This document shows positions 1,148 to 61,000 of a DNA stretch of 64,000 nucleotides, piece by piece; the stretch's first letter is position 1, and every line of letters begins with the position of its first letter. The stretch lies in the IMG/VR virus record IMGVR_UViG_3300031555_002574; one strand, given 5' to 3'. Under the pieces are notes generated by a model, which was not told where the DNA came from, ran no database searches, and was given only the letters and a program-made list of their open reading frames with translations. The position numbers were made by a program, and so were the translations under genes. The DNA is from an uncultured virus (IMG/VR IMGVR_UViG_3300031555_002574). Taxonomy: Duplodnaviria > Heunggongvirae > Uroviricota > Caudoviricetes.

Positions 1148-2809
1148 TCATTCTTTTCTAGTTACTATTGAACAGCCTGTTGTTGTATTATATATATTAT
1201 TTATAACATTATAATATTCATCATATGTCTCTATACCAAATTTTTCTATATAATCATACTCATTCTTAACAGCTTCTTCTATAATTTGCATTAGCTCAAA
1301 TTGTTTTGTTTCAGGTTCTTTCTTATCTGATATATTTAATCCAAATGTTTCTATAAATGGAGTTAATATACCTGTTGATCCTGGATCTGAGTTACCAACA
1401 ACGTTTAGGTCTATACGTCCTACGAATGATGGATCTATACCCCTTTGACATGTTGCTATAGTTTTACCTGAACTTCCCCCTTGACTATTCGGTCCTTTAA
1501 TTGAATACTTTAACTTACTCCAGAAGTCCATATCGTTAACAACGTCGTCAAACTTAAATAATCCAGAGTTATATAAGTTATTGATTAATATATCTCCTCT
1601 AAATGAGAATAATTCTTCTAACGTATTTAAGTTTCTTGATTGAGGTTTTCTTACTTTACTCATTATTCTATATAATGTATTACTTAATTCTCTTGTCATT
1701 AATGCTGCTATATATTCATTATCTCTTAATCTCTTATTAGTTATATCCATTATTCTTTTACTCTTAAGTTCGTTATAATTCATAAACATCCATCTTAATG
1801 CACTATACATACTATCTTTATGGTCTGCTGCAATATTTAATGTTCTTCTAGTTGTCATATCCATCATACGGTCTACAGACAATAGAAGATTTCTTGCTTT
1901 AGCTCTTTTAAAGTTAGGTTGCTGTATATTAGGTTGATGACCTAATTTCTCTAACCAGAAATTTTTATCTTGCATATCTTTAACAGTTGCTCTATTGTTA
2001 ACTGATTCTAATATCATACCTGCAACTGATTTTACTTCTGTAGATTCTTCAAAAGCAAATCTGTTTACTTTAATAAATGCTTCTTGACTTATTTTAAAAT
2101 AAACATATTTATCTAAATCATCATCTAATGAATTTGTAAGTTCAATTACTTTTTCCATACTAAGGTATCTTAATCCCTCTTTAAATCCCATCTTAGCGAA
2201 GAATAATAACATCATATTAATCTCATTCTTAAATATTGCTGTAGAATATATTGGAATTGTAAAAGGATTTCTGTCAACATCATGAATCACTTTTGATTTT
2301 CTTTTTAATACTATAGGCATTATTGATTTAAGAACAACACTATTTGATGTACTATATGTCGTAGAATCAACTAACTGATACATAAGAATATATCTTTTTC
2401 CTTTTAACATATAATATCCATCATCATCTTTTATTGGAATCAATATGTTTTTGGAATATTTCTTACTCATCATTTTAGTTGTTCCATCTTCCTGTTTAAC
2501 ATCAATTGACAATTCATAATGAATTGTCAATTCACCACATCTTGATTCTGACATAAACATTACTTCTACAGGATCATCTTGAACTTTCTTACCTCCCTGC
2601 ATTCTGTTTCTTTGATAATCATTTAGTTTAATTTCATTAGGATTTTCTTTATATTCATAACCTATTATCTTAACTGAATCAAATACTTCTAATGATTTGA
2701 TAGTTTCATATACGTACATATATAAAGGTTTATCTAATTCCCTATTAATTAATGGTAAATTTAATTTGTCGTCAAATGTACGACAATAATCTGATAACAT
2801 TTTATACAT
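1148..2809 (-). CDS. phage multisubunit RNA polymerase beta subunit, N-terminal half (probably non-virion RNAP)
   Basis: Motifs IPIKDDDGYYMLKGKRYILMYQL and RGIDPSFVGRIDL...SDPGSTG resemble RpoB conserved regions; split beta is characteristic of phiKZ/AR9-like phages. Confidence 0.85.
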   Translation of the reverse strand: MYKMLSDYCRTFDDKLNLPLINRELDKPLYMYVYETIKSLEVFDSVKIIGYEYKENPNEIKLNDYQRNRMQGGKKVQDDPVEVMFMSESRCGELTIHYELSIDVKQEDGTTKMMSKKYSKNILIPIKDDDGYYMLKGKRYILMYQLVDSTTYSTSNSVVLKSIMPIVLKRKSKVIHDVDRNPFTIPIYSTAIFKNEINMMLLFFAKMGFKEGLRYLSMEKVIELTNSLDDDLDKYVYFKISQEAFIKVNRFAFEESTEVKSVAGMILESVNNRATVKDMQDKNFWLEKLGHQPNIQQPNFKRAKARNLLLSVDRMMDMTTRRTLNIAADHKDSMYSALRWMFMNYNELKSKRIMDITNKRLRDNEYIAALMTRELSNTLYRIMSKVRKPQSRNLNTLEELFSFRGDILINNLYNSGLFKFDDVVNDMDFWSKLKYSIKGPNSQGGSSGKTIATCQRGIDPSFVGRIDLNVVGNSDPGSTGILTPFIETFGLNISDKKEPETKQFELMQIIEEAVKNEYDYIEKFGIETYDEYYNVINNIYNTTTGCSIVTRKE

Positions 2810-2829
2810 ATAATCAACCTCCTAATATA

Positions 2830-3036
2830 TTAATCTTCAAAATAATTATATGGTTTTCCTGTGTCATTCTCATAATCTCCATACATCAAACATGCTCCTA
2901 TACAATCCATAGCTAAACTTAAATCCAAAAGAATAGCTTCTTTGTCTTCTCCTTCTTCCATTTCCATATTAATTTCCATATATCTTTCTTCTAATATTGC
3001 TAAATCACTTAATAATTCTGATAATTTTCTTTCCAT
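2830..3036 (-). CDS. small acidic hypothetical protein
   Basis: 68 aa ORF with GGAGG RBS within the operon. Confidence 0.6.
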   Translation of the reverse strand: MERKLSELLSDLAILEERYMEINMEMEEGEDKEAILLDLSLAMDCIGACLMYGDYENDTGKPYNYFED

Positions 3037-3049
3037 AAATATCTACCTC

Positions 3050-3808
3050 CTAATTATATCTTAATGGTTTATAATTGTCTTCTTTCTCATTCTTTTCAAA
3101 TTCATTAATAGATTCATTTATTAAGTTTTCCATAGATGCATCGTTCTTAACCATTAGTTTATATTCTGGCATAACATCTGTTCCCCACATATCGTCTTCT
3201 TCTTTATAATTGAAATATAATATATCAAATAATTTATATGCATAATTCTTTTTACCTTTGTTCATTCCTAAATCATAGAATACTTCTTCTAAGAATATTT
3301 CTATAAATATAGATATTAATCTTTTATCGTTTATTATTAAACCCATATTACCGTAACAGTTATTTGTTATATCTTGTAATAAATCATACCACGTTTCATT
3401 ATACTCTCCGGATTTAACATTTAATATTCTACCGTTATATTCTTCTATAGGTACTTGATGTTTATTATATTCTTTAAAATCCATTTTACAATACTCACAA
3501 CCTCTAGGACCTATTCTAAAATCAGGTAATATATTAGTTGCTTTTTCAGTTTCATCAAAGTTTAATTCAACTAATCCAAATGTTACTATATCAAATAAGT
3601 TTATATAAGCAGACATATCTTTTCCATCTCTCAATGAGTTTAAATTACTTATTAAACTTTTAAGACATAAAGAACCTAATGCTGGAATAACATCTCTACG
3701 GATCATACATATTCCATACTCATAACTTAATCTTAAGAATGTTTTGGATGCAATACGGTCCATACTTTCCATGCATGGAACCACGTTTAAGAAATTTAAT
3801 TTACTCAT
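3050..3808 (-). CDS. hypothetical protein (apparent paralog of 4348-5052, two internal repeats)
   Basis: 252 aa ORF with RBS; shares a helix plus (L/V)F(D/E) pattern with its neighbours. Confidence 0.6.
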   Translation of the reverse strand: MSKLNFLNVVPCMESMDRIASKTFLRLSYEYGICMIRRDVIPALGSLCLKSLISNLNSLRDGKDMSAYINLFDIVTFGLVELNFDETEKATNILPDFRIGPRGCEYCKMDFKEYNKHQVPIEEYNGRILNVKSGEYNETWYDLLQDITNNCYGNMGLIINDKRLISIFIEIFLEEVFYDLGMNKGKKNYAYKLFDILYFNYKEEDDMWGTDVMPEYKLMVKNDASMENLINESINEFEKNEKEDNYKPLRYN

Positions 3809-3825
3809 AAATTCCCCTCCAAACT

Positions 3826-4302
3826 TTATTGTATTTCATATACTACATTATTATTACCATTATTTGATACTATACATATATCAAATACATTAACTACATC
3901 TTCTATAAGCTCATCTCTATAAATAAAATATCGTAAAGTTTCTGTAAATGCTAATAATGAAAATCCACATAAATCTTTTGGGTAATCAACTTTAAGTTCT
4001 TTAATTTCTTTAATATAATCATTGTCTATAAATGTTTCTTTAATATTATATCTATCAAGTTGTAATATAATCCTATCATCTATTTCATTTTTATCAACGG
4101 TTCTCCATATGATTTTTTCATCCTCATATCCTATCTCAATATCATTAATAATTAACCTTTCTTCATTTTCTTTTACAAATGGATATATTTTTTTATCTAA
4201 GAATATCTGTAATTCTTCAATCACGTCATTTAAGTTATTAACTAATATTCTTGAATTTTCATATAATTTAAATCTAAAATATTCTTTTATATCATTTATC
4301 AT
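3826..4302 (-). CDS. hypothetical protein
   Basis: 158 aa ORF with GGAGG RBS. Confidence 0.6.
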   Translation of the reverse strand: MINDIKEYFRFKLYENSRILVNNLNDVIEELQIFLDKKIYPFVKENEERLIINDIEIGYEDEKIIWRTVDKNEIDDRIILQLDRYNIKETFIDNDYIKEIKELKVDYPKDLCGFSLLAFTETLRYFIYRDELIEDVVNVFDICIVSNNGNNNVVYEIQ

Positions 4303-4347
4303 ATATCTTACCTCCTAATTTTAAAATCAAAATAAGAGAGAAATCTC

Positions 4348-5052
4348 TTATTTTGATTTGATATTATTAACTGCAAACTCATCATCTTCATCTTTTAATC
4401 TTTTAGCTTCATTTAAAATATCTTCATATACAGCTTCAATTGTTTTCTGTGTAAATTCAGATATTTCTATAGATTCAAATCTTCCTGTATCATCTAATAC
4501 TATTGTGAACTGATCAAATACTACTAATGTATCATCTGTTACTGGGTTTACTTTTATATAAGCTATCATTTCATTAAAGAATACTTCTGATATCTTAAAT
4601 ACTATTTGATAATTAGGAATCGTTAATCCATGTCTATCTTCTAAATATTCTACTGCTCTCATAGATATGCTTTCTAATAATTTTATATCTACATCTGCTA
4701 TAGAGTTCATAGCTTCTTCAACATCTTCTTCTGGTAATTCTAAATCTAATCTTCTCATAGCCATTCTACCTAAACTCATTATTGTCATTAATTCAGGTTT
4801 TTCTTCTCCTGGAATTACTTCATGAATCATTCTAAACATTTCAAATAGATTTAATTCACTTCTAACTTTATCAGCTCCTAATAATTGTAAAGACTCGTAT
4901 ATAGCTGAATCTATAAAGCAATTTACTATTGCAGGTATTACAACTTCTTGATTTATTCTAATTTTATATTCTCTTTCTAAAGTTCCTATTGTAGCTATTA
5001 CTATTTTACTTATTTCCTTTTCAGATCCTAAGAATTCTAAATTTTTAAACAT
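4348..5052 (-). CDS. hypothetical acidic protein, first gene of an early-type operon
   Basis: 234 aa ORF with GGAGG RBS; early-type promoter at 5087-5120. Confidence 0.65.
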   Translation of the reverse strand: MFKNLEFLGSEKEISKIVIATIGTLEREYKIRINQEVVIPAIVNCFIDSAIYESLQLLGADKVRSELNLFEMFRMIHEVIPGEEKPELMTIMSLGRMAMRRLDLELPEEDVEEAMNSIADVDIKLLESISMRAVEYLEDRHGLTIPNYQIVFKISEVFFNEMIAYIKVNPVTDDTLVVFDQFTIVLDDTGRFESIEISEFTQKTIEAVYEDILNEAKRLKDEDDEFAVNNIKSK

Positions 5053-5086
5053 ATAATTACCTCCTAAATTTTATTTTTATTCATAA

Positions 5087-5120
5087 TTATAATATATAAT
5101 CGAAATAACACCTTTTTACA
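5087..5120 (-). promoter_or_regulatory. early-type phage promoter (TGTAA-N20-ATATTATAA)
   Basis: Minus strand TGTAAAAAGGTGTTATTTCGATTATATATTATAA; the motif recurs upstream of about 12 operons. Confidence 0.7.
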
Positions 5121-5173
5121 GTTAGATAAAATAGACATCTATATCTCTATAGATGTCTATTAAAATTTATAAT

Positions 5174-5530
5174 TTACTTTTCAGGTTTGAAAAGTTCATA
5201 ATCATATTTTACTACTATATCATTCAATTTCATAAATCCTATAAATCTTTTATTTTTGTCTTTATAAGGTTTTACTAATGGTACATTTTTACATCTTTTC
5301 TTCATATTTCTTAATAATAACGGTGAAGATTGTGATGTTAATACCATGTCATATTTCTCTACATTATCAGGTACAGCAAAAGCTATAGGTTTATTAATTA
5401 AGTTTATTATTGTGTTTTCATAATCTTCTTTTGCTACACCCATCATTCTTTTTAATATATTCCATTGAAAATCTTTAATTTCAACTTTTCCAACTACTAA
5501 TATATTTTTTGTTATTTTTTGTCCATTCAT
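5174..5530 (-). CDS. hypothetical protein
   Basis: 118 aa ORF with RBS, AACA-N6-TA at 5556-5567 and a downstream hairpin at 5130-5161. Confidence 0.6.
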
Positions 5531-5589
5531 AATATTACCTCCTAAATTTTTTATCTACATATTTGTTATACCGTAATTAAAATTTAATA

Positions 5590-6188
5590 AAGTTGATAAA
5601 TGAAGGGTATTACTCACCCTTTACATATCCTAAGGTACGAATATGTTGATTGCTAATAATGATAACCTTGATGTCAATACTAAGCAATCTCAGGTAAGTA
5701 ATACCAGTTCAACTCTATATATACTGCTCCGACAAGGGAGCTAAAAATCAATCACGGTTGGATTCACATCAAGCGAAAACCTGACTACCCTTCCGTCCAT
5801 CTAAGATCTCAATTATAGAGTCTTTATTTGTCTATCAGTAAATCATATAGCCGCTACTTCGCATCATAGATGATATTTTTCCAATATTACTTTCCTGCAA
5901 AATGCGTACTCGTAAAACGTACTCAATAACATCATGGATCTTTTCGTCAGTCATTTATATGAGAAACAGATAAAAAAATAAAAGACAAATTGAGACTGAA
6001 GAATATAGTTCGCCCCACCAATAAAAAAATAAATCTATTGACCTCTTTTCACATGCATAACCGATGCGTACTAATCCGTATAGCTGGAATTAACAGCTTA
6101 CGTCGTTCTGGTTACGGTTAAGTAATCCTCATGATACTAAGAGCCCCAATAATTTATTTATTGGGGCTAAGATTCTCCAAACATTATT
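5590..6188 (-). ncRNA. candidate large (~600 nt) structured non-coding RNA, family unassigned
   Basis: No ORF of 60 aa or more, raised GC, several local and long-range helices with G-U pairs on the minus strand, and an AACA-N6-TA promoter at 6188-6199. Confidence 0.7.
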
Positions 6189-6199
6189 ACATTATTGTT
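6188..6199 (-). promoter_or_regulatory. late-type promoter AACA-N6-TA upstream of the candidate ncRNA
   Basis: Minus strand AACA-ATAATG-TA immediately after the ligase stop codon. Confidence 0.55.
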
Positions 6200-6202
6200 G
6201 CA

Positions 6203-8296
6203 TTATTTTAAATTTAATTTAGCTTGTTCTAAATTATAAATAGTTATACCATATTTCTTAGCTTTCGTTATCTTACTAGAAGTTACATCTAAACTAGGAA
6301 CTACTAAATAATCTGTAGTTTTAGTTAATGAATCGACTACTTCATAGCCATTAGATATTAATTCAGATTCAAATTTAGGATCTCTTACTTGTGAGAAACA
6401 TACTTTACCTTTTAATTTTCCTGGTGCTACTTTTTCTTTTAATTGTATTTCATCTAATAGGAAATAAATTGTAGATAATTTACTTAATATTCCTTGTTGA
6501 ACTCTAGAAGCAGTTTTCTCTCCAAATCCTGGTAACCCCATTAAGTCTACAGCTAACATTTGATCTTTAGCTAATCTTAATACTGTTTCTAAATCCATAA
6601 CAGATAAAACTTTCTTAAACATTCTAACACCTATTGATTGAATTCCTAATGAACCTAATAGTTCATAATCAAATACAATTCTGCGTTTATTAATTCCTTC
6701 AATCATATTGTCATATGATTTCTCTCCAAATCCTGGTAATGAAATTATTTTTGATTTATGATCTGATAATTTATATAATGACTCTATACCTGTTATTATA
6801 CCTTGATCGAATAATGTTGAAACTGTTTCTATATTAAGATTTTCAATCCTCATTTTATTTATATAGTTTACAACGTTTCCTATTATTCTTGAAGGACAAT
6901 CTTCATTAACACATTTTAATAATGGATCTTCTTCTAACAATCTTCCACAATGTTTACAATGTGTTGGAACATAGAAAGGTTTACCGAATCCATTTACTTT
7001 ACATGTATGATCTATATCCATATAAGGAATTATTTCATATCTTACTATTACTTCACTTCCTGATAATAATTGATGTTGCATACTTCTAAATCTATCTATA
7101 GAACCTATTGATATGGAACTTATAGTCTTACCTAACATTATAACCGGTTCTATTTTAGCTACTGGCGTTATATTACCTCCTAATCCATATGAGAAGTCTA
7201 TATCAAGCAATATTGCTTTTGTAGCTTCTGCTGGGAATTTATATGCAACTTCATATCTATTTATCGCACCATCTCTACCTAATTTAGCTTGTAATTTCTT
7301 ATCTACTAAATGTAATACAACTCCATCTGTAACTCTACCTTCTTCTTTAGCATGTTCATTTATTGATTTGATACATTGTTGTAAATCTCTTAAATCAAAT
7401 AAATTACTAATCATATCAAATTCTTCATTAGGAATTATTTCTGGTTGTTTTCCTACATATTGAATTCTCAATGGTTCTACTGTAAGATATTCAGATAATT
7501 CTGGTTGTAATACTTTTTCATTTAATATAGACGATGTTGCAGATCTTGGTGATTTAAATTCTTTATATTCTATACATATTCTTTCGTATTCTTTTTGATT
7601 CATCAACACTTCCGTTTGAACTGCAAATTTATCTTTAAAGTTTGCAAATTGTTTAAATGAGAAATTATCTTTAAATAATGCTCCAACATCAACTGCTTGA
7701 TTCTTCTCCGTATCACCTCTCATCAACACGTGTTCAATTTCTCCATATTCATCACATTCAAATACTGCTGAACAACCATCCCATTTAGCTTGTAATCTTA
7801 TTTCAAATTCTTTTGTGTTATTTATATTTCTTCCTAATATATTTTCTATACTAGTTATCCAATCTTCTATACTTCTTCTTTTATCCCCTTCTTTATCAAC
7901 ATTGAATATAAAATGAACTTTATTTAAAGTTCCTCTTAAGTCTGGAAATCTATGTTCTCTCACAGGTTTTCCTTGACTATTTACAGAACCAACTATATCT
8001 CCTAATCCAACGTCTAGCATTATCTGATATAATTTATCGTATGTTGCATCTGATACCGGTGGAACTATATCTGTATTATTATAGATGAATTGTAATATTT
8101 CTACTAATTTTCTACATGTGAATAAATCCATATCATCCAAACTCTTTAAATCTGCACTATTAAAATAATCTATTATACCTTCAAAGTTTATTCCTTTTAA
8201 CATCTCAACTATTTCATTTATAGAGTCCTCATTCATTTTTAATAATTCTTTATGAATTATATCTAACTGATGATATATTGATATTTTCTTACTCAT
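6203..8296 (-). CDS. ligA: NAD-dependent DNA ligase
   Basis: KWDG adenylation motif, SDATYD, AYKFPA, C4 zinc finger, HhH repeats (LPGFGEK) and C-terminal BRCT. Confidence 0.95.
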   Translation of the reverse strand: MSKKISIYHQLDIIHKELLKMNEDSINEIVEMLKGINFEGIIDYFNSADLKSLDDMDLFTCRKLVEILQFIYNNTDIVPPVSDATYDKLYQIMLDVGLGDIVGSVNSQGKPVREHRFPDLRGTLNKVHFIFNVDKEGDKRRSIEDWITSIENILGRNINNTKEFEIRLQAKWDGCSAVFECDEYGEIEHVLMRGDTEKNQAVDVGALFKDNFSFKQFANFKDKFAVQTEVLMNQKEYERICIEYKEFKSPRSATSSILNEKVLQPELSEYLTVEPLRIQYVGKQPEIIPNEEFDMISNLFDLRDLQQCIKSINEHAKEEGRVTDGVVLHLVDKKLQAKLGRDGAINRYEVAYKFPAEATKAILLDIDFSYGLGGNITPVAKIEPVIMLGKTISSISIGSIDRFRSMQHQLLSGSEVIVRYEIIPYMDIDHTCKVNGFGKPFYVPTHCKHCGRLLEEDPLLKCVNEDCPSRIIGNVVNYINKMRIENLNIETVSTLFDQGIITGIESLYKLSDHKSKIISLPGFGEKSYDNMIEGINKRRIVFDYELLGSLGIQSIGVRMFKKVLSVMDLETVLRLAKDQMLAVDLMGLPGFGEKTASRVQQGILSKLSTIYFLLDEIQLKEKVAPGKLKGKVCFSQVRDPKFESELISNGYEVVDSLTKTTDYLVVPSLDVTSSKITKAKKYGITIYNLEQAKLNLK

Positions 8297-8360
8297 ATTA
8301 TTACCTCCTAAAAATTTTCATTATAAATAATTGTGTTGTAAAATATAAAAAGATAAGAGC

Positions 8361-9128
8361 TTACGCTCTTATCTGACTTAATAACATTGTATATTTTCTC
8401 ATATCTAACGTACCGTCTTCTCTTCTAGCTTGTTCCATTATAGATATACGTTTATGAGATTTAAATGAATTGTCATATTGTTTTACATTTTGGAATTTTG
8501 GTTGTTCTGTATTTATATCTTTTGGTTTTTCAGTTTCTTTAGCTTTAGCTTCAGTTTCTTTAACTTCAGGTTCTTCTACTTCTGGAATTGTTTGTGTTTC
8601 TGGTTCTTTTTCATCAATTACAAATCCAGGATCATATATTTTTATTTGTCGTGTTACATTATATTTTTCACCTTTTGTTTGTATTTCTGATATTGTTATT
8701 CCTACTGATTCTATTCCTTCTCTTGGTAATTGTGATTTAGCAAATGATAAAGCATCTTCAACTGTATCTGGTAATAATAATCTTCTAACTACATAAGGTC
8801 TTACTGATTCATTTTTAACATTCATACAAGCTACTGTCATAGTTTCTGGATTTAGGTTTAATAAATCATATTCTTTATTTCCTCTGAATGTTAATTCTAT
8901 AACTGCTGAATACTCATTGAATTTATAAACTTTCTCAATTGTTAATCCATCTATTATATCATAGTTTAATAATTTATACACTTTAACCCAATTAGCAAAT
9001 ACTTTAACATCTTCTTCTGATAAATCTTTTATAGCTTCTTTAAACTTAGCTAATTCTGTTTCCATTAAATCATCACAATCAACTATAAGTTCTTCATTTT
9101 CTTTTAAATTTAAATTATATTTTTTCAT
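8361..9128 (-). CDS. hypothetical protein with E/K/P-rich linker
   Basis: 255 aa ORF with RBS and an early-type promoter at 9171-9203. Confidence 0.65.
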   Translation of the reverse strand: MKKYNLNLKENEELIVDCDDLMETELAKFKEAIKDLSEEDVKVFANWVKVYKLLNYDIIDGLTIEKVYKFNEYSAVIELTFRGNKEYDLLNLNPETMTVACMNVKNESVRPYVVRRLLLPDTVEDALSFAKSQLPREGIESVGITISEIQTKGEKYNVTRQIKIYDPGFVIDEKEPETQTIPEVEEPEVKETEAKAKETEKPKDINTEQPKFQNVKQYDNSFKSHKRISIMEQARREDGTLDMRKYTMLLSQIRA

Positions 9129-9240
9129 ATTACTACCTCCAAATTAATATATATTTTATTTACTTCATTGTTATAATATGGTACTCAAATCCTATGAATT
9201 ACACATATGGGAACATAGAAAATGAGATATAGAGTTTTCT

Positions 9241-11526
9241 CTATATCTCATAACTTGTTTCATTAAATTCTTTCTTAAACTTCTCAAATAGTTCTTTTCT
9301 TAGTTCTTCATATTCATCCATAGTTCCTATAAATATTTCTTCTTCGAAATATTTATCAACTTTATATTCAACTAATAATTCTATATATTTCTCATCCGTT
9401 ACTAATACTTTCTCTCCATCAGGTAATTCCCTTTCATGAAGATCGTTATCTATACAATCGAATATTATTTCTTTAATAGTTTCAGATTGTTGTAATTTAT
9501 AACCCATAGTTTTAAGGTATGCATTGAATACCTCAATGTTTCTATTAATTATCTTATCATCATCTCTTAATCTATCAACCATCCCTTGTTTTAATAATTG
9601 TACAGGTAAATCATGAGTTCCTTCAATTGAGTTTCTGTAACTCATACTCATCTTAGCTAAATCATATGGGTCCATTCCTATTAATAAGTTTAGAACTTCA
9701 TCAAGACCTAATCTACATGGAGTTTTACTATATAATATTTTATTTTCTTTAGCTTGAGCATCTTTAACAGGAACACCTATTAAGTTAACACCTCCAACGG
9801 ATCTTGTACTTAAACCTTTAGATGCTGTTTGTTTTAATCTTATAATATACATTTCCCCAACTATAAGATTATTCATTATTGGTCTATATCTTCCATTCTT
9901 TTTAATATATGCTTTGTAAGGAGTTAACCAATCATACTTGTCATATATTTCAGATAAAACATCAAATAATGGTCTCTCATGCCAGAATGGAGGAATGTGT
10001 ACAAATATTCCTCTTTCATAAACATCTTGAATAAATTCTTCTCTACCATCAGCATCTAATTGTGTATACATTTCACCCATTTCTTTTGCTTGTCTTGTAT
10101 TAAAATGACTTATCATTGTGAATATGACTTTAGCTCTCTGATCATTAGTTTCTAATGTTTTAATTCTGTCTATAGTTCTATTCATTATGAAATTTATAGA
10201 CTGTTCAAATAATTGGAATGAGTTAAGTCTGTTGATAACCCCAAGACAGTTAAATAGAACATCTACAACTTTTCCATTTTCTAATACAGGCATTTCATCA
10301 TCCGGAACTATCTTAGATATAACACCTTTGTTACCAAATAACCCTGTTATCTTACTTCCTTCTTTTAATGGAACTTCTCTTTCAACTGTAAATTCTATTA
10401 TGATATTACTGAATGGTTTCTTACCTTGCTGCTCACTCCATTTAACATTTTCATTTAATATATCTTTACTTTTCTTATACATATAATTGAAGTTTCTACT
10501 ATGATCTTTATTATCCATTACTATATCTTCAGTTGCTTCTTTCATTTCTTTATAGAATCTTTGTTCATTTATAAAATACTTATTAACTTGAGCATGATAT
10601 TCGTTCATTTCCATTTCTTCTAATGGTTTATTAGAATATACTCTTATATCTATTATCTTACCTCCATAACCATGTTCTATGCATAAAACATCTTCTCCAA
10701 AGTTTATCTTTCTTAAATTTGTTTCTTTAAAATCATAGAATATTTGTTCATTATTAATTCTTCGAGTTGCACATATAATTGCATCATTTATATATTCTCC
10801 AACATCTGGAAAACATTTATAATTATTTTCATCTCCATATAAGTTTAATAGAACGTCGTTGTCATTTATTGATACTTTAATATTCTCAACTTCAACACAT
10901 CTAAAACTATCTGCAAATGATTCACTTACTAAAATAGCATCTTCTGTAGTTCTTACATCAGATGTATAACAGAATGTTGCATTAACTCCAAATCTATAGT
11001 TATTATATTCATCATACGAAGTTGATTTATATAATACTGAATCTTTTGGAATTAAATCTCCAACTTGAAGTTTATCTAAATCACTTGTATTATATCTAAA
11101 TCCAAATTTTTCTGTTAAATCTTCTACTAATTTCTTTTGTATTACATCATAATAACCAGTTGCTTCATCTTTAACTATTAACGTATAAAGATGATTACCC
11201 TCTTCAAATTTATATATTTTATCAACTATTCTCCATTCTCTTTTAGCTCTTTGGATTCCTGTTGAATTTTTTCCTACCATGTTTTCATATTCTGTAAATA
11301 CTTTTGGGAATTGAGGATTAATAGGTGTCATTGCTTGTTTAAGATGTCCTGTTGTCATTATCCCCCTATTCCCTGATATATATCCTATTCTTGTTAAAGC
11401 TGTCATTCCAAAGATATCATCTCTACCATAAAACTTTTCTTCTAGTTTTTGTAATTCTTCTTTTAAGAATGCATTATCTGCATTAAATTTAACATTTACT
11501 TGTTCTTGTTTTTTCTCTCTAGCCAT
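9241..11526 (-). CDS. phage multisubunit RNA polymerase beta subunit, C-terminal half (probably non-virion RNAP)
   Basis: EDAILVSESFA, GSKITGLFGNKGVISKIVPDDEMP, DVLFNCLGVINRLN and VGEMYIIRL match conserved RpoB C-terminal regions. Confidence 0.92.
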   Translation of the reverse strand: MAREKKQEQVNVKFNADNAFLKEELQKLEEKFYGRDDIFGMTALTRIGYISGNRGIMTTGHLKQAMTPINPQFPKVFTEYENMVGKNSTGIQRAKREWRIVDKIYKFEEGNHLYTLIVKDEATGYYDVIQKKLVEDLTEKFGFRYNTSDLDKLQVGDLIPKDSVLYKSTSYDEYNNYRFGVNATFCYTSDVRTTEDAILVSESFADSFRCVEVENIKVSINDNDVLLNLYGDENNYKCFPDVGEYINDAIICATRRINNEQIFYDFKETNLRKINFGEDVLCIEHGYGGKIIDIRVYSNKPLEEMEMNEYHAQVNKYFINEQRFYKEMKEATEDIVMDNKDHSRNFNYMYKKSKDILNENVKWSEQQGKKPFSNIIIEFTVEREVPLKEGSKITGLFGNKGVISKIVPDDEMPVLENGKVVDVLFNCLGVINRLNSFQLFEQSINFIMNRTIDRIKTLETNDQRAKVIFTMISHFNTRQAKEMGEMYTQLDADGREEFIQDVYERGIFVHIPPFWHERPLFDVLSEIYDKYDWLTPYKAYIKKNGRYRPIMNNLIVGEMYIIRLKQTASKGLSTRSVGGVNLIGVPVKDAQAKENKILYSKTPCRLGLDEVLNLLIGMDPYDLAKMSMSYRNSIEGTHDLPVQLLKQGMVDRLRDDDKIINRNIEVFNAYLKTMGYKLQQSETIKEIIFDCIDNDLHERELPDGEKVLVTDEKYIELLVEYKVDKYFEEEIFIGTMDEYEELRKELFEKFKKEFNETSYEI

Positions 11527-58070: not shown

Positions 58071-61000
58071 ATGTCAATTAATACAGGTGATAACTTTAAT
58101 TATTTAGGTAAAAAATTCCTAGATTCAAGACAATCATTTGATACGGTAGAACAAATGGTAATGTGTTCAGACGTTCCAGATGGATTTATAACATATTGTA
58201 AATCAGATGGATTAAGATATGAATATTTATCTTCAAATGAAAATGATGAGTTATTAGGTAAATGGCGTATACACAATGGTGGTATGTCAGATGAAGAAAA
58301 AGAATTATTAAATTTAAAATTCGATGACGTTGAAACGAATAATGAAGCCGATGAACTAGGTAACGTGTTCACAGTTATGAGATTTTTATCTAACGGAGAA
58401 GTTGTAAAAACTGTAAAATTCCAAGGTGGTGGAGGAACTGGTATGCTGGGAGGTACATTAAGCACTTCTTTACCAGAATCTTCATCAATAAACGAAAATG
58501 ATAAATTAACTATACCTTTCACATTCACATCTAACAACTGGGGTGAAGGGACTATACATATAACTATAGTTAACGGTGATACATCAAGAGAATTAATATA
58601 TAGTGTTAAAAAACAAGGTACTAGTACTGTAAATATAGGATATTTAGCTAAAGGTACTAACTATATATCTATGTACGTAGTCGATGCATTACAAAAAATG
58701 ACAAATGTTGTAACTATTACAGTAGTTTGTGGAGCTTTAGAGCTTTCATCTACTTTTGATGCTTCTAGAGACTTTGCATCATACGAAACTATAACTATAC
58801 CTTTTAGAGTAAGTGCACTTAATGCTGATGAAGAACTTACATTAAATGTAGTTATAGATGGTGATGTTATATCTCAAGTTGTAGGAAATGGATATGGAAA
58901 TTTCATTATACCTGAAAAATATAAAACAATAGGTGTTCATAAAGTATCAATGCAAATCGTTACAGCTACAACAATGTCAAAAGAATTGAATTATACAGTA
59001 ATAGTAGTTGATAATGCGCATATATTCTTAAGTTCTGAACAAGAAAGATACGAAGTAGAATTAGGATATGACATCCAAATACCTTATAGACTTTCTACTA
59101 CAAGAATAGATTCTTATGTTGCAAAAGTGTTTATAAATGATGAATTACATCTATCAAATGAAGTTGAAGTTGGAGTTAATAAAATTTCTCTATCATATAG
59201 AATGTTCTCAACTGGTACGTATTCAATATTAATAGATGCAGCTAATGGTGACGGAACTATAACAGATCAATTAGAGTTAACATTGGTAATAAAAGCATCA
59301 TCGTTCTCAAGAATAGAACCAGTTGAAATCGGTCTTGAAGCATTCTTTGATATGAGTACAGGAGATAATACTAGTACAACTAGAGATGTATTAGAATCTA
59401 TAGTTCCAAACTCTAAGAAAGAATATTATAAAATGTACTTACATGATTACAACTATGCTACAAATGGTTGGCTAAATGGTAGACTTGTAAGTAACGGTAC
59501 TGCATGGGCAGAAATAGATTATAAACCATTAGAAAACAACGTAAAAGAAGGATTTACATTTGATATCCTATTTAAAAACTATAATGTTGGTTTAAATGAT
59601 GCTAAAGTTGTAAACTGTATAAGTACAGAAGCTAATAGTGTTGGGTTTGCTATAGACTCAGAGAAAGCTATAGCTGCAACAGATGCCAATACATTAAAAA
59701 CATATTATACTGATAGAGAAGATATGAGGGTAACATTTGTTGTCAATAGAGCTAGTGTTTACTACAAAGAATTTATTATAGATGAAAACGGACATTCAGT
59801 TCCAAATCCAAATCCAACATATGAACCAAACCCTATGATACAAACTTATTTAAATGGGGTTTTAACAGATGTTGCGATGTTATCAGATACTGGAAGTGGA
59901 TCTAATAAAGTATACGAAATGTTCCAAAATGGTGAAAAAATACTTATAAATACAGATAAAATTAAATCATGTTTCGGGAACTGTGAAATAAGATCTATAT
60001 TAATATATAGTAGACCATTAGAACATGAAGAAGTATTAAATAACTACATGTCAGGATTTGACGATTTAAATACTCAAAGAGAATTATATAATAAAAACTA
60101 TATAACAATAGATAACGATATGCCTACAGTTTATATAAACGATAGTGAAATAGGCGATTATAATCTAATGACTAAAGATAATAAACAATGGATGATAATT
60201 CAATATGTATCACCAGATAAAGATAGATTCGGTGACAGTTTTGAATTAATGGGTCAAACAACATGGCAAGGTACATCATCACTTGCTTACCCAATTAAAA
60301 ACTATAAATTTAAGTTATATGATTGGGCTAGAGATGAAAATGGTGAAATTATAGAAGCAACTAAATGGGATACTAGTACTTATACTAAGAAAAAAATAGA
60401 TATGTATCCTACTTCAGGCAATGGGTATAAAGAAAACGTATTCTGTTTAAAAGCTGACTATATGGATAGTTCACACTGTAGAAATACAGGTACAGCTAGA
60501 ATATGTAATGACTTCCTATTTGATGGATATCCTAACCCTGCAAAACAAATAGATCCTAAAACAAGGGATACAATCAACGGACATCCATGTCAAGTATATG
60601 TTAACGGAAGATGGATGGGTGTATATAACTTCAACCATGATAAATCATGTACTAAATCATTAGGATTAGAAACTGTAGAACATACTGTTCGTTGGGAAAT
60701 AAAAGCGAACTCAAATACATCTGCAGGGGCATTCTTTAAAACATGGAGTAATATAGAAGAATGTTATGCAGCAATAACTGCTGACTTTGAAATAGTATAC
60801 GATGAAGATGCTTATGAAGGTAAAACTGGTGAGTACGATTTAACTAAATATTATGATGAGTTAGGATTCGCTTATGATGGTGATTCAGTTAAAGGTACTT
60901 ACTATGATTATGCTATATTATCACTTGCTAGATTTGTAAACTTCGTTGCTACAGCAGATGAAGAAACTTGGTTAGCACATAGTGATGAATATTTTAATAA

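What the first reader, a model, noticed from the sequence alone, without database searches (positions are those of the whole stretch)
5590..6199. ~600-nt, promoter-driven, highly structured non-coding RNA between the ligase and the RNAP operon
Seen in sequence: a 670-bp gap without an ORF of 60 aa or more in an otherwise tightly packed genome, with raised GC. It starts with an AACA-N6-TA promoter (6188-6199, minus strand). Helices (plus coordinates): an 11-bp hairpin at 6142-6168; 6058-6063 with 6115-6120, enclosing an AGCTG/CAGCT hairpin; a long-range helix 5819-5833 with 5983-5997, enclosing ~150 nt; 5712-5719 with 5814-5821; and a GCTCC/GGAGC hairpin at 5726-5741. At the 3' end is a three-way junction closed by a 14-bp helix (5606-5619 with 5692-5705) with inner hairpins at 5623-5646 and 5648-5689. 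Its mismatches are G-U wobbles on the minus strand and A-C on the plus strand, which independently gives the same orientation as the promoter. Established: Firmicutes and their phages carry large ornate ncRNAs of this size class (ROOL, GOLLD, OLE) of largely unknown function. Inference: this is a diverged member of such a class or a new large phage RNA made late in infection.
Basis: partly seen in the sequence, partly recalled or inferred. Interest (0 to 1): 0.88.

Follow-up and report, generated by a model that had tools for sequence, protein, structure and literature searches.

The report
New large structured jumbo-phage RNA
The gap between the DNA ligase gene and a small unknown gene of this uncultivated jumbo phage holds a gene for a roughly 600-base folded RNA that matches no catalogued RNA family and looks far more abundant than its neighbours in cattle-gut RNA data.

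Summary
Window 5531-6202 has no ORF of 60 aa or more, has raised GC, and folds far better on the minus strand (z -6.1) than on the plus strand (z -3.6). The same gap follows the ligase gene in 16 related metagenomic contigs, which with the window give 10 distinct sequences in two phage clades. All 10 start with an AR9-type late-promoter motif. All 10 carry a ~107-nt 5' core of five helices, with compensatory changes in 18 of 25 pairs and near-invariant junctions. Clade 1 adds a 3' three-way junction (19 of 34 pairs compensatory). Clade 2 and one clade 1 variant end in an intrinsic-terminator-like hairpin. No Rfam 15 family matches, including ROOL, GOLLD and OLE. In three cattle-gut metatranscriptome runs from one study, contigs over the RNA have depth 22-460, against 0-9 over the ligase gene and 5-8 over the bin holding most of p118. 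An unlabelled run is flat. The RNA and the downstream 118-aa protein occur together in 6 of 6 RNA-bearing records and in 0 of 26 others. I read it as a new family of abundant, trans-acting phage RNA. Its function is unknown. My best guess is an RNA-protein particle or decoy built around the 5' core.

The parts
6188..6199 (-). AACA-N6-TA promoter motif. If it works as in AR9, the transcription start is the last A (window 6188).
   Evidence: It begins 4 nt after the ligase stop codon. AACA-N6-TA is kept at this place in 10 of 10 distinct homologues. The motif is enriched upstream of genes in the window (26 sites against 5.6 expected). The AR9 consensus comes from PMC5312081.
5597..6188 (-). Predicted extent of the RNA, about 590 nt. 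The 5' end is inferred from the promoter. The 3' end is inferred from the end of the 3' domain plus a U-rich tail.
   Evidence: Contig depth is high in bins 5612-6213 and low in bins 5311-5611 and 6214 onward. The ends were not mapped.
6142..6168 (-). 5' hairpin, 11 bp. A variable accessory element.
   Evidence: I18, 100% complementary. Present in the window, L001, L006 and L012. Replaced or absent in L002, L003, L008 and clade 2.
6040..6146 (-). Conserved 5' core domain. P1 is 6140-6146 with 6040-6046. P2 is 6130-6134 with 6051-6055. P3 is 6115-6119 with 6059-6063. P4 is 6099-6102 with 6077-6080. P5 is 6094-6097 with 6083-6086. The junctions are near-invariant.
   Evidence: RNAalifold on the MAFFT alignment. 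In 7 sequences, 96.0% of cells pair and 9 of 25 pairs are compensatory, with 0 of 500 shuffles as high. In 10 sequences, 96.3% pair and 18 of 25 pairs are compensatory, with 0 of 500 as high (alignment fitted to the model). Model R1 finds clade 2 copies at 59-62 bits.
6135..6138 (-). AGUA of the P1/P2 internal loop. It faces GAA at 6048-6050. This is a candidate bulged-G (loop E, sarcin-ricin type) module.
   Evidence: Both strands are invariant in 10 of 10 sequences. The motif assignment is recalled from memory and was not tested.
6123..6128 (-). Segment of J2/3 that could pair with the P5 loop (6087-6092). A candidate pseudoknot.
   Evidence: A 6-bp complement is found by duplex folding in 8 of 10 sequences (6 clade 1, L054, L066); by eye it also fits the window (one G-U wobble) and L051, where the program chose another pairing. 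Clade 1 has GAAUUA with UAAUUC. Clade 2 has GGAAU(U/C) with GAUUCC. The energy beats shuffles clearly only in clade 2.
5714..6039 (-). Variable middle region. It differs in length and sequence between sub-lineages and holds the motif below.
   Evidence: No consensus fold was obtained.
5892..5910 (-). Conserved small hairpin with the signature AGUAC-(short stem-loop)-GGAA. A second AGUAC lies 13 nt upstream, at 5923.
   Evidence: The signature is present once or twice in all 10 sequences, with different stems. The stems are only 2-5 bp and thermodynamically weak.
5602..5710 (-). 3' three-way-junction domain, specific to clade 1. The closing helix is 5606-5619 with 5692-5705. The arms are 5648-5689 and 5623-5646.
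   Evidence: RNAalifold gives 11 of 27 pairs compensatory. Model R2, built from 3 sequences, finds the 3 others at 57-64 bits. 98% of cells pair and 19 of 34 pairs are compensatory, with 0 of 500 shuffles as high (alignment fitted to the model).
5556..5567 (-). Separate AACA-N6-TA motif of the downstream gene, followed by AGGAGG and the ATG.
   Evidence: Conserved in all clade 1 homologues. A like motif stands before the clade 2 gene. It lies 26 nt upstream of the start codon.
5174..5530 (-). p118, a 118-aa protein of no known family that always follows the RNA.
   Evidence: The profile is found in 6 of 6 RNA-bearing records and 0 of 26 others. There is no Pfam, PHROG, PADLOC or NCBIfam match. 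The AlphaFold model has pLDDT 91.7 and an alpha/beta fold. The best PDB match has Z 5.3, which is not informative.
6203..8296 (-). NAD-dependent DNA ligase gene, the upstream neighbour used as the anchor to find homologous loci.

Best explanation
Window 5597-6188 (minus strand) is an independent gene for a new family of large structured non-coding RNA. The RNA is about 590 nt here and 0.5-0.9 kb in relatives. It belongs to a lineage of uncultivated, AT-rich, AR9/PBS1-like jumbo phages of the cattle gut.

Shown here:
- The locus is conserved in position.
- It starts with the phage's own AACA-N6-TA promoter motif.
- Its helices are kept by compensatory changes.
- It ends in a long terminal helix or, in relatives, in a terminator-like hairpin.
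- In metatranscriptomes it stands far above the flanking genes.

Inferred: it is transcribed by the phage-encoded non-virion RNA polymerase from a late-type promoter and accumulates as a stable RNA that acts in trans.

Mechanism I commit to, at about 0.3 probability. The near-invariant, probably pseudoknotted 5' core is a specific binding surface for a protein. Its junction nucleotides are kept while all five helices change. The co-inherited downstream protein p118 is the first candidate partner. The RNA would then work as an RNA-protein particle or as a titrating decoy late in infection. The variable middle and 3' domains would serve mainly for stability and termination.
For: Conservation:
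- The ORF-free gap follows the ligase gene in 13 IMG/VR contigs and 3 metagenome contigs.
- With the window these give 10 distinct sequences: 7 in clade 1 and 3 in clade 2, where the ligase is 53-54% identical.

Covariation:
- Core: 18 of 25 pairs have changes on both sides, 96.3% of cells pair, and 0 of 500 shuffles reach this. The MAFFT-only subset gives 9 of 25.
- 3' domain: 19 of 34 pairs and 11 of 27 by RNAalifold.
- Models found sequences they were not built from. R2 found 3 of 3 remaining clade 1 loci at E 1e-12 to 1e-14. R1 found 4 clade 2 loci at E about 1e-12.

Transcription unit:
- The promoter motif is present in 10 of 10 sequences.
- Terminator-like hairpins with U tails stand in L051, L054, L066 and L012.
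- The next gene has its own promoter motif.

Expression:
- Contig depth in bins 5612-5912 and 5913-6213 was 26.8/119.8 in X2, 230.7/459.9 in X3 and 22.3/68.1 in X6.
- Depth over the ligase bins was 0-8.5. The bin holding most of the p118 gene gave 5.4-7.5.
- The unlabelled run X10 is flat at 3.8/6.0.
- One 340-nt contig of depth 506.8 covers 5776-6113 with 9 differences.

Strand: fold z of -6.1 against -3.6, and 44 G-U cells.

No conserved small ORF spans both clades.

Link to p118: identical distribution, 6 of 6 against 0 of 26.
Against: - Function is untested. No tool here can show RNA-protein binding.
- The p118 link may only reflect shared ancestry, since both are clade-specific. The p118 fold is a generic alpha/beta domain with no significant match.
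- The expression evidence comes from assembled contigs of one study. The tool warns that contig depth is a poor measure of expression. Strand and RNA ends were not observed.
- Only 10 distinct sequences are available. The 10-row core alignment and the 6-row 3' alignment were fitted to the models, which favours the modelled structure.
- The middle third has no agreed fold.
- The 3' domain of clade 1 is not found in clade 2, so only the core and the AGUAC...GGAA signature are universal.
Confidence: 0.85

Rival explanations
1. RNA-only assembly. Like ROOL and GOLLD, the RNA self-assembles into a homo-oligomeric particle or cage and needs no protein partner.
For: It is phage-encoded, about 0.6 kb and apparently very abundant. 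It has one conserved domain and one variable part. GOLLD has the same split with the ends swapped (PMC12286853 passages). No protein partner is demonstrated.
Against: It shows no similarity to either Rfam model. No tRNA genes are nearby. I saw no conserved self-complementary loop shared by both clades. Nothing here tests oligomerisation.
Confidence: 0.15
2. Ribozyme. The invariant junctions of the 5' core form an active site, for example for self-processing of the transcript or for another reaction.
For: Near-invariant junction nucleotides are flanked by freely covarying helices, with a candidate pseudoknot. This pattern is typical of catalytic and ligand-binding RNAs (general knowledge).
Against: It matches no known ribozyme family. 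There is no evidence of a cleavage site. A contig runs from the middle region into the core without a break (5776-6113).
Confidence: 0.12
3. Decoy for a host factor or a defence system. The abundant RNA titrates a host RNA-binding protein, nuclease or ribosome-directed toxin. The AGUA/GAA modules in the core and in the middle hairpins would serve as mimics.
For: It is highly abundant. The AGUAC...GGAA signature recurs once or twice per RNA in 10 of 10 sequences, beside the AGUA/GAA loop of the core. Sequestering of a ribosomal protein has been proposed for OLE (PMC12286853 passage).
Against: The motif assignment is recalled, not tested. The hairpin stems are very weak. The host is unknown. There are no PADLOC hits nearby.
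Confidence: 0.2
4. Cis-acting leader. The RNA is a long 5' leader or riboswitch-like element that controls p118 through read-through of its 3' terminator.
For: It always lies directly upstream of p118 on the same strand and has the same distribution.
Against: A separate, conserved AACA-N6-TA motif and Shine-Dalgarno sequence stand between the RNA and p118. Depth falls from 22-460 over the RNA to 5-8 in the bin holding most of p118. The conserved core lies 450-600 nt from the terminator, unlike known riboswitches.
Confidence: 0.08
5. No functional RNA. The gap is a decayed gene, a mobile-element remnant or chance structure.
For: The middle region is poorly conserved and varies in length.
Against: Compensatory changes keep the helices across two clades. 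The core is 82-94% identical within clade 1, against 80-87% for ligase DNA. Promoter and terminator motifs are conserved. Metatranscriptome depth is very high.
Confidence: 0.02

Closest known systems
ROOL RNA (Rumen-Originating, Ornate, Large)
   Same: Similar size: ROOL averages 581 nt and this RNA is about 590 nt. Both were found in cattle rumen or gut material, are carried by phages, are reported or appear very abundant, have multi-helix junctions with pseudoknot(s), and have unknown function (PMC5737381 and PMC12286853, passages).
   Different: No match to the Rfam model even at E up to 10. No tRNA genes nearby. Here a 5' core with many invariant nucleotides is followed by a variable remainder, whereas ROOL has few highly conserved nucleotides. 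This RNA sits in a jumbo phage and carries that phage's own polymerase promoter motif.
GOLLD RNA
   Same: A large phage or prophage RNA with one universally conserved half and one variable half. Its expression rises during lysis (PMC12286853 passages).
   Different: No Rfam match. In GOLLD the conserved part is the 3' region, while here it is the 5' region. GOLLD is larger, often above 800 nt, and often lies next to tRNAs.
OLE RNA
   Same: About 600 nt, with ornate structure and stretches of highly conserved nucleotides. It works as an RNA-protein particle with dedicated small proteins (abstracts of PMC12054373 and PMC9723947 seen in the listing).
   Different: OLE is a chromosomal RNA of Bacillota, not a phage RNA. 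There is no Rfam match. Its partner proteins were not looked for here.
Non-coding RNAs of jumbo phage phiKZ and of PA5oct
   Same: Other jumbo phages also express non-coding RNAs (review PMC13282480, one passage read; abstract of PMC7318152 seen in the listing).
   Different: I saw no sequences or structures of those RNAs. The phage collection holds no DNA similar to this region. The core model finds nothing in AR9 or in Staphylococcus phage S6.

Membership tests
ROOL RNA | Scores against the Rfam covariance model of the family | tested here: not met
   No match at the gathering threshold on the whole window. No ROOL match at E up to 10 on the window gap, on 6 clade 1 loci or on 2 clade 2 gaps.
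ROOL RNA | [quoted passage not shown] | tested here: inconclusive
   The size fits, at about 590 nt. Only one three-way junction and one candidate pseudoknot were resolved. The middle third has no agreed fold.
ROOL / GOLLD RNA | Encoded in phages or prophages, often beside tRNA genes | tested here: not met
   The phage context is met. There are 0 tRNA genes in the 64-kb window and 0 in 4 homologous loci of 9-10 kb.
GOLLD RNA | Rfam model match, with a conserved 3' region and a variable 5' region | tested here: not met
   No Rfam match. Here the conserved domain is at the 5' end.
OLE RNA | Rfam model match | tested here: not met
Group I / II introns, RNase P, tmRNA, 6S and other known RNAs | Match to any of the 4227 Rfam 15 models. 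For tmRNA, also detection by ARAGORN. | tested here: not met
   The only hit in 5400-6400 is PYLIS_3 at E 3.5, with 14.2 bits against a gathering score of 38. ARAGORN finds nothing.
Riboswitch or cis-regulatory leader | An aptamer followed directly by an expression platform that gates the downstream ORF within one transcript | tested here: not met
   The core lies 450-600 nt from the 3' helix or terminator. A separate promoter motif and Shine-Dalgarno sequence precede p118. Depth drops before p118.
Retron msr/msd or other RT-associated RNA | A reverse transcriptase gene in the same element | tested here: not met
   RVT_1 (PF00078) is found in 0 of 4 related phage contigs that are 80-100% complete.
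Type III toxin-antitoxin RNA | The antitoxin RNA consists of tandem repeats upstream of the toxin gene | tested here: not met
   No tandem repeat family lies inside the RNA; the only tandem pair found (10 nt, 5503-5522) lies in the p118 gene. p118 has no invariant acidic set of the kind a PIN nuclease would need (PIN residues recalled).
AR9-type late (non-virion RNA polymerase) promoter | AACA-(6N)-T followed by A or G, the last base being the start site (PMC5312081) | tested here: met
   Present at 6188-6199 and in 10 of 10 homologues. Enriched by position upstream of genes in the window (26 against 5.6 expected). Its activity and timing were not tested.

The most novel reading that the evidence does not exclude
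The 5' core is a new RNA fold with its own biochemical activity, either catalytic or sensing a ligand or protein. Together with the co-inherited protein p118 it forms a phage-specific RNA-protein machine made in bulk late in infection. It might, for example, capture a host translation or defence factor through its AGUA/GAA (sarcin-ricin-like) modules. That would make it a functional RNA class with no described counterpart.
Probability: 0.2. Interest if true: 0.92.

Novelty: new variant of a known kind. Interest (0 to 1): 0.8.

Why it matters
Very few large, intricately folded RNAs are known outside ribosomes and introns. Those known from phages (ROOL, GOLLD) turned out to build unprecedented RNA-only cages, and their function is still unknown. 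This is a further, unrelated family with several useful properties:
- a compact, near-invariant core of about 107 nt that suits structural and biochemical work;
- a clear transcription unit driven by a phage-polymerase promoter motif;
- a candidate partner protein;
- apparent very high abundance in rumen RNA.

It also shows that jumbo phages with their own RNA polymerases devote a highly expressed gene to a non-coding RNA. The family is narrow and sharply defined by sequence, so a covariance model can now trace it in rumen and gut data.

Tried and rejected
Searches for homologues that found nothing new:
- DNA similarity to 50,697 phage records: no match.
- The ligase as a single query in viral contigs: nothing. 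An alignment was needed.
- Exact 22-mer of the 3' domain in viral contigs: 0.
- A 17-mer core pattern in viral contigs: 23 loci, of which 14 were chance matches with no further similarity.
- Two core patterns in genomes of 185,579 species: 0 and 0.
- Own whole genome: none is held.
- Earlier notes of this scan: none.

Generic promoter and terminator scan: sigma-70-like sites are at chance level (14 against 13.1) and no terminator-like site lies in 5000-6800. The phage probably does not use sigma-70 promoters.

Structure:
- The middle region gave no consensus from single-sequence folds.
- The MAFFT alignment of both clades (A10) misplaces the 5' strand of P2 and the P5 loop, so I did not use it for counts.
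- Small ORFs: the antisense ORFs of 27-43 aa over the core are similar only because the nucleotides are conserved. They are missing in L001 and clade 2.

p118:
- No family in Pfam, PHROGs, PADLOC or NCBIfam.
- Foldseek best E is 0.013.
- VIA-align best Z is 5.3. Rossmann-like domains, including CARF, PIN and Argonaute MID, are tied at Z 4-5, below the level that means anything.
- The ESM Atlas gave only unnamed clusters.

Other checks:
- No reverse transcriptase in 4 related contigs.
- AR9 and Staphylococcus phage S6 have no comparable gap after their ligase genes and no core match.
- An apparent 2.9-kb ORF-free gap at 58538-61484 was an artefact of my ORF caller. One plus-strand frame is open throughout and the ORF runs off the window.
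- Papers: five searches found no description of this RNA. Supplements were not consulted.
Full report
**What is in the window**

The interval 5531-6202 lies between two minus-strand genes: an NAD-dependent DNA ligase (6203-8296) and a 118-aa gene (5174-5530). Its longest ORFs are 43 and 39 aa. GC in 200-nt windows is 0.31-0.385 inside it, against 0.20-0.30 around it.

The phage is a distant relative of the AR9/PBS1 group of jumbo phages:
- The ligase is 25-28% identical to those of AR9, PBS1 and the Staphylococcus S6-type phages.
- A neighbouring gene encodes a split RNA polymerase beta subunit (PF00562, phrog_3295).
- No whole genome is held for the window.

**Is the structure more than chance?**

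As RNA, the minus strand of 5560-6200 folds to -177.1 kcal/mol, against -140.1 +/- 6.0 for 20 dinucleotide shuffles (z -6.13). The plus strand gives z -3.64. The strongest evidence is comparative, as follows.

**Homologues**

Ligase relatives of 75-98% identity are numerous in metagenomes. An alignment of them recovered 4 metagenome and 9 IMG/VR loci. In every locus that extends past the ligase gene, an ORF-free gap of 525-993 nt follows, and then a homologue of the 118-aa gene.

A second search used ligases of 36-54% identity and gave 46 loci. Four of these, with ligase 53-54% identical, have gaps of 766-843 nt. Most of the more distant ones have gaps of 0-100 nt.

In all there are 10 distinct sequences of the region: 7 in clade 1 (window, L001, L002, L003, L006, L008, L012) and 3 in clade 2 (L051, L054, L066).

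**Anatomy**

1. Promoter motif. An AACA-N6-TA motif begins 4-5 nt after the ligase stop codon in 10 of 10 sequences.
2. 5' hairpin. It is present in 4 of the 7 clade 1 sequences.
3. Core. It spans about 107 nt (window 6040-6146) with helices P1-P5.
4. Middle. It varies in length and sequence and always carries one or two copies of the signature AGUAC-(short stem-loop)-GGAA.
5. 3' part in clade 1. A three-way junction lies at window 5602-5710.
6. 3' part in clade 2 and L012. Other 3' structures end in an intrinsic-terminator-like hairpin with a U tail.
7. Next gene. A second AACA-N6-TA motif and a Shine-Dalgarno sequence precede the 118-aa gene.

**Covariation in the core**

- RNAalifold on a MAFFT alignment of 7 sequences predicted P1-P5, with 9 of 26 pairs compensatory.
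- On the gap-free MAFFT alignment A4, 96.0% of cells pair and 9 of 25 pairs change on both sides. None of 500 shuffles reaches this, and slid controls give 0-1.
- Model R1, built from clade 1 only, finds the clade 2 copies at 59-62 bits, E about 1e-12 to 1e-13, immediately after their ligase genes.
- In clade 2, P1 to P4 keep pairing with other base pairs, and P5 is replaced by a longer hairpin. The junction strands stay the same: UAGUA...GAA, GUAAnCnGAACGAC, GGAUyAGUAmGC and AUGC.
- With 10 sequences, 96.3% of cells pair and 18 of 25 pairs are compensatory (47 cells). None of 500 shuffles reaches this, and slid controls give 2-5. This alignment is fitted to the model, which favours it.

**Covariation in the 3' domain**

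- RNAalifold gives 11 of 27 pairs compensatory.
- Model R2, built from 3 sequences, finds the other 3 standard clade 1 loci at 57-64 bits.
- 98% of cells pair and 19 of 34 pairs are compensatory, with 0 of 500 shuffles as high (also fitted to the model).
- R2 misses L012, which has a 316-nt expanded version with the same closing helix.
- R2 finds nothing in clade 2.

**Candidate pseudoknot and recurring module**

- A pseudoknot may join J2/3 to the P5 loop. A 6-bp complement is found by duplex folding in 8 of 10 sequences, with different letters in the two clades; in the window and L051 it is seen only by eye. Its energy exceeds shuffled controls clearly only in clade 2.
- The P1/P2 internal loop (AGUA facing GAA, invariant) and the AGUAC...GGAA hairpins fit the bulged-G, sarcin-ricin type consensus. 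I recall that consensus from memory and did not test it.

**Strand and coding potential**

- G-U pairs account for 19 of 240 cells in the core and 25 of 201 in the 3' domain. They would be mismatches on the plus strand.
- The promoter motifs and the terminators point the same way.
- No ORF of 25 aa or more is shared by both clades on either strand.

**Promoter**

- The AR9 late promoter is AACA-(6N)-TA/G, with the last base as the start site (PMC5312081, passages read).
- In the window the bare motif is not enriched (94 found, 100.9 expected).
- However, 26 of 132 sites lie within 80 nt upstream of a same-strand gene start, against 5.6 expected. The extended consensus is near ATAACAAATATTTA.
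- The predicted start of the RNA is therefore 6188. The timing, late, is inferred by analogy only.

**Expression**

Eleven public runs hold part of the stretch, and four of them are labelled metatranscriptomic. I laid three RNA runs of one study and one unlabelled run on 2000-11000.

| Run | Depth, bin 5612-5912 | Depth, bin 5913-6213 |
|---|---|---|
| X2 (RNA) | 26.8 | 119.8 |
| X3 (RNA) | 230.7 | 459.9 |
| X6 (RNA) | 22.3 | 68.1 |
| X10 (unlabelled) | 3.8 | 6.0 |

- In the three RNA runs, the seven ligase bins give 0-8.5 and the bin holding most of the p118 gene gives 5.4-7.5.
- X10 is flat across the whole stretch.
- A single 340-nt contig of depth 506.8 covers 5776-6113 with 9 differences.

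Caveats: these are contigs, not reads. They show no strand and no ends. The tool warns that contig depth is a poor measure of expression. All three RNA runs belong to one study.

**Is it a known family?**

- Rfam 15 (4227 models) gives nothing at gathering thresholds on the window.
- Permissive scans of the window gap, six clade 1 loci and two clade 2 gaps give only scattered sub-threshold hits to unrelated families.
- It is therefore not ROOL, GOLLD, OLE, an intron, RNase P, tmRNA or 6S by the tests available.
- Unlike ROOL and GOLLD, it has no tRNA genes nearby.
- There is no reverse transcriptase in 4 related contigs.
- Five literature searches found no description of it.

**Distribution**

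- The core model finds one copy in each of 6 related contigs.
- It finds none in 24 more distant jumbo-phage contigs, of which 12 are at least 90% complete, nor in AR9 or S6.
- A junction-signature pattern finds exactly the 13 known IMG/VR contigs. It finds nothing in genomes of 185,579 prokaryote species.
- The family looks confined to two sister clades of cattle-gut jumbo phages.

**The neighbour p118**

- Its profile occurs in 6 of 6 RNA-bearing records, always just downstream, and in 0 of 26 others.
- It has 78 homologues, none with a family name.
- It has no Pfam, PHROG, PADLOC or NCBIfam match.
- Its model is confident (pLDDT 91.7), but the alpha/beta fold has no significant match.
- Its conserved residues are mostly Lys, Arg, Tyr, Asn and Gln. 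That is compatible with nucleic-acid binding but does not show it.
- Co-occurrence is confounded by ancestry.

**How it most likely works**

Shown: this is a separate, conserved, structured and apparently highly accumulated RNA gene.

Inferred: it is transcribed by the phage's non-virion RNA polymerase, late in infection, and acts in trans.

Best guess at mechanism (about 0.3): the invariant core binds a protein, with p118 as first candidate, and forms a particle or a decoy.

| Rival reading | Probability |
|---|---|
| Host-factor decoy | 0.2 |
| RNA-only assembly like ROOL or GOLLD | 0.15 |
| Ribozyme | 0.12 |
| Cis-acting leader of p118 | 0.08 |
| No function | 0.02 |

**Verdict**

It is a new RNA family of a kind known only from a few examples, namely large ornate phage RNAs.

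Noticed in passing
window 3806-4106: A second, smaller rise in metatranscriptome contig depth: 36.1, 30.5 and 20.3 in X2, X3 and X6, against about 0-8 beside it. The unlabelled run X10 is flat at 4.0. The rise spans the 3' part of the 158-aa gene (3826-4302, minus) and the start of the 252-aa gene (3050-3808, minus).
   Followed up: no
L012 6089-7853: One clade 1 relative has a 993-nt gap. Its 3' domain is expanded to 316 nt between the same closing-helix strands. It has its own intrinsic terminator and an extra 137-aa ORF (7082-7495) inserted before the p118 homologue.
   Followed up: partly
window, 26 sites listed: The gene-proximal AACA-N6-T[AG] sites share an extended consensus near ATAACAAATATTTA, 15-79 nt upstream of start codons. 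This suggests the phage uses AR9-like late promoters throughout the window.
   Followed up: partly
window 58538-64000, plus strand: One plus-strand frame is open for at least 982 codons and the ORF runs off the window end. It is a very large gene that ORF lists without open ends do not show.
   Followed up: partly
L055-L060, L070, L081, L086 (just after the ligase gene): In more distant relatives that lack the RNA, the ligase gene is followed within 30-94 nt by an ORF of 117-121 aa. This is the size of p118, but neither tblastn nor the p118 profile detects it. It could be a very remote homologue or an unrelated gene in the same slot.
   Followed up: partly
IMG/VR contigs behind L008 and L007 (handles G002, G003): IMG/VR classes these contigs of 128-228 kb as 'provirus', although their gene content is that of AR9-like jumbo phages.
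   Followed up: no
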